Part shown: one piece after another, positions 56,440-59,670 of the stretch
How the letters are laid out: every line of letters begins with the position of its first letter
How positions within the stretch are numbered: position 1 is the first letter of the stretch
Source of the DNA: Eledone cirrhosa
Taxonomy: Eukaryota
NCBI GenBank assembly: GCA_964016885.1
Contig: OZ024743.1
Coordinates: 224,192,001 to 224,256,000 of the forward strand
Length of the DNA: 64,000 nt
Direction of reading: 5' to 3'
The notes under the pieces: model-generated
The model's database searches: none
The model's input: the letters and a program-made list of their open reading frames with translations, nothing else
Told to the model about the DNA's origin: nothing
Translations under genes and position numbers: made by a program

Positions 56440-57160
56440 CTTCATCATCATAGTTTTTATGTCCTTTTTTCCATGCTTGCATGGTTTGAACTGCTCCTTC
56501 TCAGCATGGCGTCTCTCCACTTGTCGCATTCTTTCATCATCTCTGAGTCTCGGTGATTTGAGGTCAGTTCTCACAACCTCTGCCCAGATCTTTCTTGGTC
56601 TACCTCTACTGCGGCTTCCTTCCAGGTTTTAATCCAACGATCATTGTCCAAGCATATCATGTCTGTACCAATAGTCTTCTCTCCTGCACACCACCTAAGA
56701 TTCCTCTTAAACCCAGCTTGTCCCTCAACTCGTGCAAACTCTGCCTTTCTCTCATGTATATTGCACATCCAACAGAGCATGGTTGCTTCATTTCTCTCCA
56801 GTCTATGCATGTAGTCTGCAGTCACAGCCCATGTTTCACTGCTATGCAGCATTGCACATCACATAAAAGTGTCATAGTCGTCCTTTTGCACATAGGGAGA
56901 AACCTTTTGTAGTCAACAGTGCGAGTAGCTCTCTAAACTTCTTCCATCCTATCCTTATTCTAGCTATTATGCTCTGAGCACCCACCTCCATTGCTAATTA
57001 CATTTCCTTGATAGCAGAAGCTATCAACCACTTCTATGGGTCCTTCCTGTGACTGGAAGAGGTTTATACCACTGGCTCTCTTCCCCTTAGTAACACCTGT
57101 GCATCTACATAGTCTTCTCATTCTGTTATCCCACTACATCTCTTGTGTATCCAAGATTTA
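56440..57160 (-). mobile_element. Degenerate RTE LINE 3' fragment
   Basis: MLHSSETWA..RLERNEA motif; same family as 2440-3660. Confidence 0.75.
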
Positions 57161-58692: not shown

Positions 58693-59072
58693 AGATTATA
58701 TAACAGGGGTAATCAGTTTGCCTTATATGTTCTTACCTGTGCAGATTAGTTAATATTTTAATGTTCAGTCATAGGTTAAAAATAAAAATTTCATCAGAAC
58801 AATATAAAATATAGGAAAGAACTTTGTTAAATGAAATTAAAAATACAATTGATGATTGAATAGTCTCCTTCAAAATAAATAAATTGATATAAGTTAAAAG
58901 ATCATTTAAATTATTAACAAAATAGGAAATACAAATGTTTTAAATTTTAAGAAAAGCAACGCTTGCTGAATTTTGATTTAACAGCATTATTTTTATGTTC
59001 TAATTTATAATACAGTTTTATTTTATGATAATATTCCAAATCAAATTGATAATTTTTCTGATTTTTTTTCTT

Positions 59073-59215
59073 TTAAGATTCAATGGCATCATTAAAAAAT
59101 TTCACCAGTTTACATAGATCATAATTTACAAGAATGTCTTTCAGAGTTGATAATTTGTTCTTGACATCATGTCCCCTGAATCTATTACTGTCAATAAATA
59201 AATCTGTAATAACAC
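59073..59215 (-). CDS. BBS7: BBS7 last coding exon
   Basis: (S)VITDLFIDSNRFRGHDVKNK..YDLCKLVKFFND resembles the vertebrate BBS7 C-terminus; the acceptor is non-canonical (see findings). Confidence 0.88.
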
Positions 59216-59546
59216 ATAAAATATAGTTAAGGAATTCAATAACATGTATAGATATACAACAAAAAGCAACAACATGACTACAACACTGCCCTATCCTTTG
59301 CATCCTTCTTCACCAACTTCATTCAATTTTTTTTTCTTGTGATCATACATTATTTTATTCTTTCAACTAGTTATTGGTTTCAACTAGTAGACTGCAACCA
59401 TCACCCAGAACATATTCTTTTTTTTAAGCCTGGTATTTATTTCATTGATCTCTATATGGTGGTGTTAGTGTATGTGAGAGATAATTTGTTACAATTACCC
59501 CAAAAAAAAAAAAAAAAGGGAGTAAGATGATTTCAAAAAAGGATAT
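59216..59546 (-). other. BBS7: U12-type (minor spliceosome) intron, 331 nt, predicted AT-AT termini
   Basis: 5' splice site ATATCCTTT at 59546; branch site TTCCTTAAC at 59234-59226, 10 nt before the homology-predicted junction. Confidence 0.82.
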
Positions 59547-59670
59547 TATGAAGTTTATCTATATGAAATGAACTTTGAGAAAATTTCTCTCTGATACTTT
59601 TTGCATTTTCTACAATATTTAGATATTCTTCTGATAGGAAACTCATATCTCTTTCATGGACTTGCAATTC
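59547..59670 (-). CDS. BBS7: BBS7 penultimate exon
   Basis: ELQVHERDMSFLSEEY..HIDKLH; AG acceptor. Confidence 0.9.

What the first reader, a model, noticed from the sequence alone, without database searches (positions are those of the whole stretch)
59203..59547. BBS7 last intron: U12-type with apparent AT-AT termini
Seen (minus strand): the exon ends CAT A|ATATCCTTTT, a consensus U12 AT-type donor, with no GT at that position. A consensus branch site TTCCTTAAC is followed by TATATTTTAT|GTGTTATTACAGAT. Splicing after AT gives IDKLH-S-VITDLFID, collinear with the vertebrate sequence as I recall it (LERLY-G-MITDLFID). The next AC (10 nt downstream) would frameshift, and the next AG (12 nt downstream, exon start 59203) stays in frame but removes four conserved residues. 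Known: U12 introns are mostly GT-AG or AT-AC, choose acceptors by distance from the branch point, and only rarely have other termini. Inference: a rare AT-AT minor intron with three competing acceptors that could tune BBSome subunit output; gene predictors would probably mis-annotate it.
Basis: partly seen in the sequence, partly recalled or inferred. Interest (0 to 1): 0.75.

Follow-up and report, generated by a model that had tools for sequence, protein, structure and literature searches.

The report
BBS7 intron that switched splicing class
The last intron of this octopus's BBS7 cilia gene is cut out at rare AT...AT ends, likely by the minor splicing machinery, while the same intron is an ordinary GT...AG one in the clam, worm, arthropod and chordate relatives sampled, so it likely changed from the major to the minor class in the squid-octopus line, a direction usually assumed not to happen.

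Summary
Confirmed. The intron is 59546-59216 (minus strand, 331 nt). A spliced contig joins 59547 to 59215 at AT..AT ends with no boundary ambiguity. Three DNA runs list no variant at 59216. Donor and branch site are perfect U12 consensus, the branch A lies at -12, and all four minor snRNAs are in the genome. AT-AT is a known rare subtype (701 conserved animal introns, 0.95%), and this scan has noted AT-AT introns in other genes of other genomes. The three-acceptor tuning idea has no support: only the AT junction appears, in one low-depth contig. The unexpected part is evolutionary. At the same codon and phase, 62 of 62 intron-bearing outgroup loci end in AG. All 42 recovered donors are GT and none has the U12 consensus. 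These loci include bivalve, annelid, pancrustacean, tunicate and fish types. BBS7 is absent from the human and mouse minor-intron tables searched. A cuttlefish gene model reads through as D-I-L, which fits an AT-type U12 donor. Best reading: in-place major-to-minor conversion on the coleoid stem (about 0.55-0.6). Main rival: an ancestral minor intron converted repeatedly elsewhere (about 0.3).

The parts
59547..59670 (-). BBS7 penultimate coding exon (124 nt), ends in the first base (A) of the split Ser codon
   Evidence: covered by the X4 contig with 0 other letters
59216..59546 (-). 331-nt phase-1 intron with AT...AT ends, U12-type by sequence
   Evidence: joint 59215/59547, skips 331, AT..AT
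59537..59546 (-). U12 5' splice site ATATCCTTTT; predicted 8 bp with this genome's U11 and 9 bp with its best U6atac copy
59226..59234 (-). U12 branch site TTCCTTAAC; A59227 (position -12) is the bulged base in the predicted duplex with this genome's U12 snRNA
59216..59217 (-). AT acceptor in use
59206..59207 (-). AC inside the last exon (branch A at -22); would shift the frame; use not seen
59204..59205 (-). AG inside the last exon (branch A at -24); in frame; use not seen here; the equivalent AG is used by one O. vulgaris gene model
59596..59597 (-). cryptic GT in the penultimate exon; joined to the AG at 59204 it would give an in-frame product 21 residues shorter, the same as O. vulgaris model CAI9732051.1; use not seen here
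59073..59215 (-). BBS7 last coding exon up to the TAA stop; AATAAA at 59022; single copy in the genome
60890..60995 (-). preceding BBS7 exon, joined to 59670 in the same contig through an ordinary GT-AG intron
   Evidence: (joint 59669/60890, CT..AC on the + strand)

Best explanation
The last intron of this octopod's BBS7 gene is cut out at AT...AT ends, likely by the minor (U12) spliceosome, and it likely arose by in-place conversion of an ancestral major GT-AG intron on the stem of squids and octopuses. SHOWN: the cut sites, the consensus donor and branch site, the minor snRNA genes, and a GT-AG intron without U12 motifs at the same codon and phase in all outgroup loci read. INFERRED, splicing (about 0.92): U11 and then U6atac pair with ATATCCTTTT, U12 pairs with TTCCTTAAC and bulges A59227, and the acceptor is set by distance (12 nt), so AT is used and the AC and AG further on are skipped. 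The product is full-length BBS7 with no special regulation beyond the slower splicing reported for A-type introns. INFERRED, history (about 0.55-0.6): the ancestral G|GT...AG|G site gained U12 motifs, and the donor became AT before decapodiforms and octopods split. After that the exon's last G was no longer needed for U1 pairing and changed to A, turning Gly into Ser or Asn in octopods only. The order of the single mutations, and whether the acceptor is AT in other cephalopods, is not known.
For: Junction in the X4 contig, with no such joint in DNA runs X1-X3. The gene is single copy, with no retrocopy found. U12, U11, U6atac and U4atac are in the genome and their pairing with this intron is predicted. 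Branch distance is within the 11-13 nt optimum. Outgroups: of 80 metagenome loci, 76 were analysed. Of these, 14 are contiguous and 62 have an intron at exactly this site; 62 of 62 end in AG, 42 of 42 recovered donors are GT, 0 start RTATCC, and 0 have a U12 branch site within 1 mismatch. All 42 have G at -1. A tree and best hits place intron-bearing loci with heterodont bivalves (L029), annelids (L022, L035), copepods, a sister pancrustacean group, tunicates (L032) and fishes (L023, L059). A fish model ends L-Y-G-E, which fits a GT GAR donor (P0199). BBS7 has 0 hits in human and mouse minor-intron tables where the controls TMEM231 and/or TCTN1 are found. The Sepia model ends L-Y-D-I-L: none of the 36 possible 8-mers starts with GT and 4 start ATATCCT, while transcript-derived members of that cluster splice to L-Y-G-I-I. 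The split residue is Gly in 117 of 117 non-octopod proteins and S or N in the 6 octopod ones that have it.
Against: The junction rests on one contig at depth 7.8 from one run whose kind is not on record. Its sample (S2) differs from the DNA sample (S1), so base 59216 was not seen in the RNA sample. Three RAD runs did not cover 59216. U12 dependence was not tested. The 62 loci are redundant (28 distinct last-exon peptides, 23 among those with donors), unnamed, and placed with a short, partly unresolved tree. No intron from a gastropod, Nautilus, brachiopod, or a certain cnidarian or sponge was seen. Five arthropod-type donors are only 2 mismatches from the U12 consensus and could be relics. Published work mostly treats conversion as running minor to major, and a protein-fixed G at -1 is the feature said to favour that direction. 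The cuttlefish donor is inferred from three residues, not read as DNA. Gly is not invariant in distant eukaryotes (82 of 134 aligned), so its loss in fast-evolving octopods may be ordinary drift.
Confidence: 0.6

Rival explanations
1. The intron was minor (GT-type) in the bilaterian ancestor. It converted to major independently in bivalves, annelids, pancrustaceans and chordates, and was kept only in coleoids, where a GT-to-AT change locked it in.
For: Conversion is widely held to run minor to major. A G at -1 favours U1 capture, and Gly fixes it here. AT-AC introns convert less often than GT-AG ones. Five of 42 outgroup donors are T-rich and 2 mismatches from consensus. No certain non-bilaterian intron was sampled.
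Against: [quoted passage not shown] No U12 branch-site relic within 1 mismatch in 62 loci; 33 of 42 donors differ at 4 or more of 8 positions. G|GT...AG|G is the major-type proto-splice context.
Confidence: 0.3
2. One reading: the AT, AC and AG acceptors compete and tune BBS7 output, or a major-spliceosome GT(59597)-AG(59204) event around the minor intron forms a regulated twintron.
For: The sites exist and the AG is in frame. One O. vulgaris model uses the equivalent GT and AG. U12 acceptor choice is reported to be error-prone, and A-type introns show cryptic major-site activation when minor splicing is impaired.
Against: Only the 59215 joint is listed, at a threshold of 1 in 100. The AC and AG lie far outside the optimum distance. 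All other octopod and decapodiform proteins that span the junction are full length. Both alternatives delete conserved residues of the C-terminal hairpin.
Confidence: 0.08
3. The ancestral major intron was lost in early cephalopods and an unrelated minor intron was later inserted at exactly the same site.
For: No sequence likeness remains between this intron's ends and the outgroup introns. Large minor-intron gain is known in Physarum.
Against: It needs two events and a hit on the same nucleotide of a coding sequence of about 2.1 kb. No intron-less cephalopod was seen, and the other BBS7 introns inspected start with GT.
Confidence: 0.06
4. The AT-AT ends are an artefact: an assembly error or private allele of an ordinary AT-AC intron, or a reverse-transcription jump.
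For: The RNA-like run comes from another sample than the DNA runs, and X1-X3 may be the assembly's own reads.
Against: Three DNA runs list no other letter at 59216. The joint has 0 shared letters, so there is no direct repeat for a template switch. It restores the exact conserved protein.
Confidence: 0.04

Closest known systems
AT-AT U12-type (A-type, AT-AN) introns: 6 human and 6 mouse in Sheth 2006 (PMC1557818); 701, or 0.952% of conserved animal minor introns, in Larue and Roy 2023 (PMC10639083); human KCMF1 and HNRNPLL in the tables of PMC8280824
   Same: Consensus AT donor, TTCCTTAAC branch site, short branch-to-acceptor distance, AT end, frequent mis-annotation.
   Different: In Sheth's Table 3 the AT-AT introns have minor-type orthologs (AT-AC, AT-AG, AT-AA). 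Here the orthologous position is major-type in all outgroup loci read, and BBS7 is not a listed minor-intron gene in human or mouse.
Dipteran CG3294/URP (Zrsr2) intron 3, the single U2-to-U12 case in Lin 2010 (PMC2831892)
   Same: A lineage-restricted minor intron where other animals have only a major intron.
   Different: The fly case is GT-AG and a twintron whose old U2 sites still work, made by activating cryptic sites. Here the U12 sites sit on the same codon and phase as the outgroup U2 sites, the old GT and AG are gone, and the donor is AT.
Minor introns with inferred major ancestry and 'minor-like' intermediates such as TM9SF1 (Olthof 2024, PMC11347168)
   Same: Proposes major-to-minor conversion through a state that keeps G at -1; 15-20% of human minor introns were inferred to have major ancestry.
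   Different: Those are bulk inferences for human introns. This is a single case in a mollusc lineage that has gone on to AT ends and, in octopods, has lost the -1 G with a coding change.

Membership tests
U12-type intron | 5' splice site RTATCCTT | tested here: met
   0 mismatches at 59546
U12-type intron | branch site TTCCTTRAC | tested here: met
   0 mismatches at 59234-59226
U12-type intron | branch-to-acceptor distance near 11-13 nt | tested here: met
   A59227 is at -12 for the acceptor in use (optimum)
U12-type intron | no distinct polypyrimidine tract | tested here: inconclusive
   pyrimidine share 0.62-0.67 before each of the three acceptors in an AT-rich region
U12-type intron | host has U11, U12, U4atac, U6atac able to pair with the sites | tested here: met
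   all four above Rfam cut-off; predicted duplexes for U11, U12 and U6atac
U12-type intron | removal depends on the minor spliceosome; lariat branches at the predicted A | not testable with these tools
   needs knock-down and lariat reads
AT-AT subtype | spliced product with AT at both intron ends | tested here: met
   X4 joint AT..AT, 0 ambiguous letters, 1 contig; the intron base was seen only in sample S1
Major-to-minor conversion | same codon and phase as outgroup introns | tested here: met
   62 of 62 intron-bearing loci
Major-to-minor conversion | major type in several independent outgroups, including the same phylum | tested here: met
   bivalve, annelid, pancrustacean, tunicate and fish-type loci
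Major-to-minor conversion | no minor state in deeper or nearer outgroups (sponge, cnidarian, gastropod, Nautilus) | tested here: inconclusive
   no intron-bearing locus could be placed there; the gastropod-like locus L026 is contiguous
U2/U12 twintron of the dURP type | ancestral U2 sites still present and used | tested here: not met
   the ancestral GT and AG positions now read AT and AT; a different GT/AG pair exists but no joint was seen
BBS7 | BBS7 platform and hairpin domains, collinear exons, single copy | tested here: met

The most novel reading that the evidence does not exclude
An ancient major-class GT-AG intron of BBS7 was rewritten in place into an AT-type minor intron on the coleoid stem, with no twintron stage left, and later lost its major-type exon G in octopods at the cost of a conserved Gly. 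This would be a clear, datable major-to-minor conversion that has gone all the way to AT ends, and it may point to a wider set of minor-intron gains in cephalopods.
Probability: 0.55. Interest if true: 0.65.

Novelty: new member of a known kind. Interest (0 to 1): 0.47.

Why it matters
The AT-AT ends alone are a known rarity and matter mainly for annotation: 3 of the 10 named cephalopod BBS7 models seen depart from the full-length protein at or just before this junction. The history matters more. Whether introns can move from the major to the minor spliceosome is an open question. Lin 2010 found one case, Moyer 2020 and Larue and Roy 2023 treat conversion as one-way, and Olthof 2024 argues for occasional gains. 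This intron has a fixed protein anchor and a major-type state in four outgroup lineages, including bivalves. A few public genomes (Nautilus, squid, vampire squid, gastropods, cnidarians, sponges) would settle the direction and could show the intermediate steps. If the rival is true, it is still a clear case of an AT switch protecting a minor intron from conversion.

Tried and rejected
The run search listed no RNA holder on record; X4 was treated as RNA-like only because of its exon-only cover and two joints. RAD-seq runs X5-X7 were laid in the hope that an EcoRI site beside the branch site gave cover; none covered 59216. A search for short octopod proteins showing alternative junctions found nothing (18 candidates, none significant). 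Scans of genome contigs and viral contigs for more BBS7 last exons found none. Four of 80 metagenome loci (L089-L092) were dropped before counting because they match only from residue 12; for 20 of the 62 intron-bearing loci no donor was recovered. The donor step returned nothing, probably from an invalid option in my script, and was redone. A-to-I editing as a rescue of the G-to-A changes at the junction was considered because coleoids edit heavily (recalled) and AT-to-GT editing of U12 donors is reported. It has no support: the contig shows no other letter at 59547, A59547 and A59546 are predicted unpaired, and the region folds no better than shuffles (z = +1.12). Shifted boundaries giving Asn or Cys are excluded by the contig. 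intronIC is not available; mismatch counts to consensus were used instead. Literature: 'BBS7' with 'minor intron' gave 0 papers; none of the 25 papers listed for BBS7/U12/minor spliceosome contains BBS7; the cephalopod search showed no paper on this; one conversion search gave 0 and another listed 13 general papers. The BBS7 intron 18 search listed 5 papers that did not look relevant and were not opened. The per-species intron tables of intronIC, IAOD and MIDB were not in the supplements I could search and may already class the Octopus intron as minor.

Full report
1. Observation. On the minus strand a 124-nt exon (59670-59547) ends one base into a codon and is followed by ATATCCTTTT. TTCCTTAAC lies at 59234-59226, and in-frame coding resumes at 59215 after an AT. 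The two exons match BBS7 chain 6vbu_7 at residues 631-671 and 674-714 and the Pfam BBS7 hairpin at positions 33-73 and 75-114. Exactly one residue is therefore split. Of the in-frame exon starts between 59226 and 59203, only 59215 (AT) and 59203 (AG) follow an A-N dinucleotide, and only 59215 keeps the length. The gene runs about 39 kb, starting upstream of the window, and its last exon is single copy. The closest proteins are from Octopus (85% identity over the last exon) and Argonauta (76%), so the genome is an octopod's.

2. Direct evidence. Run X4 (kind not on record, sample S2) holds a 1611-nt contig that covers only exons. It joins 60890 to 59669 through a GT-AG intron and 59547 to 59215 through a 331-nt skip with ends AT..AT and no ambiguous letters, at depth 7.76, in 1 contig. 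No joint to 59205 or 59203 is listed. DNA contigs of X1-X3 (one sample, S1) span the intron, list no other letter and do not hold the joint. Limits: one contig at low depth; contigs drop rare forms; the intron base was not seen in S2; RAD runs did not cover it.

3. Mechanism. The donor and branch site have 0 mismatches to U12 consensus. The genome has U12 (1 match), U11 (2), U6atac (15) and U4atac (1) above the Rfam cut-off. Predicted duplexes pair U11 with +3..+10, U6atac with +4..+12, and U12 with the branch site, bulging A59227. That A is at -12 for the AT, -22 for the AC and -24 for the AG; the published optimum is 11-13 nt. The simplest reading is a constitutive minor intron whose acceptor is chosen by distance. 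Dependence on the minor spliceosome is inferred, not tested.

4. How rare AT-AT is. It is known: 12 cases in human and mouse; the second commonest non-canonical type in animals, 701 introns or 0.952%; 8 entries in one human table. Earlier notes of this scan report AT-AT or AT-AA introns in TRIT1, CIP2A, OCRL and VPS52 of other genomes, where the mammalian ortholog is itself minor, and none for BBS7.

5. The unexpected part. BBS7 has no entry in the human and mouse minor-intron tables I searched: 12 of 13 files of PMC8280824, 8 files of PMC6717393 and 4 files of PMC7507305, with controls found. A scan of metagenome contigs with an alignment of last-exon peptides gave 80 loci. Four were dropped as partial matches. 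Of the 76 left, 14 are contiguous (transcripts or intron-less, so uninformative) and 62 carry an intron at the same codon and phase. All 62 end in AG. All 42 recovered donors start GT and follow a G. None starts RTATCC, and none has a branch site within 1 mismatch of U12 consensus. The loci are redundant (28 distinct peptides, 23 with donors). A tree of 41 selected loci and 34 reference proteins, together with best hits, places intron-bearing loci with heterodont bivalves (L029; support 1.0 for that group), annelids (0.90), copepods (0.98), a sister pancrustacean group, the tunicate Phallusia (0.94) and vertebrates (1.0); others are unplaced and deep nodes are unreliable. A fish model ending L-Y-G-E fits a GT GAR donor.

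6. Dating. The Sepia pharaonis model CAE1234855.1 stops three residues after the junction with D-I-L, as this window would read N-I-L. After a G, D-I-L can be spelled only by AY ATH YTN: 36 8-mers, none starting GT, 4 starting ATATCCT. None of the 42 outgroup donors reads that way. Transcript-derived members of the same cluster have L-Y-G-I-I. So an AT-type minor donor is likely shared by decapodiforms and octopods, with -1 still G in cuttlefish. The split residue is Gly in 117 of 125 aligned proteins (all non-octopod), Asn in 5 Octopus proteins, Ser in Argonauta, and absent in 2 aberrant O. vulgaris models. The change of -1 from G to A therefore came later, in octopods.

7. Direction. One gain on the coleoid (or cephalopod) stem stands against at least four independent minor-to-major conversions. 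For the gain: parsimony, the absence of branch-site relics, the G|GT...AG|G context, and the stability of minor introns in chordates and molluscs. For retention: the known bias toward minor-to-major conversion, a fixed -1 G that would favour it, the resistance of AT-AC introns, five T-rich arthropod-type donors, and no certain non-bilaterian data. I put the gain at 0.55-0.6 and retention at 0.3; these are judgement, not computed values.

8. Regulation. The AG and a cryptic GT at 59597 could give an in-frame product 21 residues shorter, identical in form to one O. vulgaris model. Whether that model rests on reads is unknown. Nothing here shows regulated use. A-type introns are reported to be spliced less efficiently, and cilium genes are enriched for minor introns in human, so some rate limit on BBS7 is plausible but untested.

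9. What I saw of each paper. PMC1557818: passages and Tables 2-3. PMC10639083: passages, section 30, supplement hits. PMC11347168: passages, section 25, supplement hits. PMC2831892, PMC3584512, PMC9992838, PMC4176328, PMC6865273: passages. PMC7367187 and PMC8280824: passages and supplement searches. PMC7507305 and PMC6717393: supplement searches only. The other papers were seen as search listings only. Dietrich 2005 was seen only as cited. Per-species intron databases were not visible and may already list the Octopus intron.

10. Verdict. The subtype is known, and the tuning idea is unsupported. The likely major-to-minor switch in coleoids is the part worth following, and a few public genomes would decide it. 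Novelty: new member of a known kind. Interest 0.47; 0.65 if the gain holds.

Noticed in passing
L008:7508-7645 and L007:8475-8576 (minus strand, upstream of the window): BBS7 has a duplicated exon pair that looks mutually exclusive. The two forms match Octopus isoforms X2 and X1 (P0005, P0001), both forms occur in decapodiform proteins (P0132, P0010), and the Sepia model fuses both.
   Followed up: partly
L009:3013-4947 (minus strand): Another BBS7 intron has a U12-like donor after AG (GTATCCTC) but a major-type 3' end with a pyrimidine tract and CAG, so it looks hybrid or minor-like. The one outgroup locus with an intron near there (L053) has an ordinary donor.
   Followed up: partly
G000, 15 places (L015-L017 fetched): U6atac is multicopy (15 matches) against 1 U12, 2 U11 and 1 U4atac. 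O. bimaculoides has 45 high-confidence entries in what the coordinate list indicates is the U6atac column of Olthof Table S7. The best copy has an A-rich donor-binding stretch.
   Followed up: no
window 59547, 59546 and the first base of the last exon in Octopus: Three neighbouring positions around the junction changed from G to A in coleoids or octopods (exon -1, intron +1, and exon +1 in Octopus as inferred from Asn). No sign of A-to-I rescue was found.
   Followed up: partly
window 59418-59461: A dispersed repeat of about 40 nt inside the intron, with copies on several chromosomes.
   Followed up: no
window 59301-59312 with 59534-59545: A purine-rich intron stretch is predicted to pair with most of the donor (probability about 0.99 for +4..+10), but the region folds no better than shuffles.
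   Followed up: partly
proteins P0002, P0008, P0126: Public cephalopod BBS7 models CAI9732051.1, CAI9732053.1 and CAE1234855.1 are shortened at or just before this intron.
   Followed up: yes
window about 56600-57050: A decayed stretch that resembles a LINE retrotransposon fragment (recalled resemblance, not tested).
   Followed up: no
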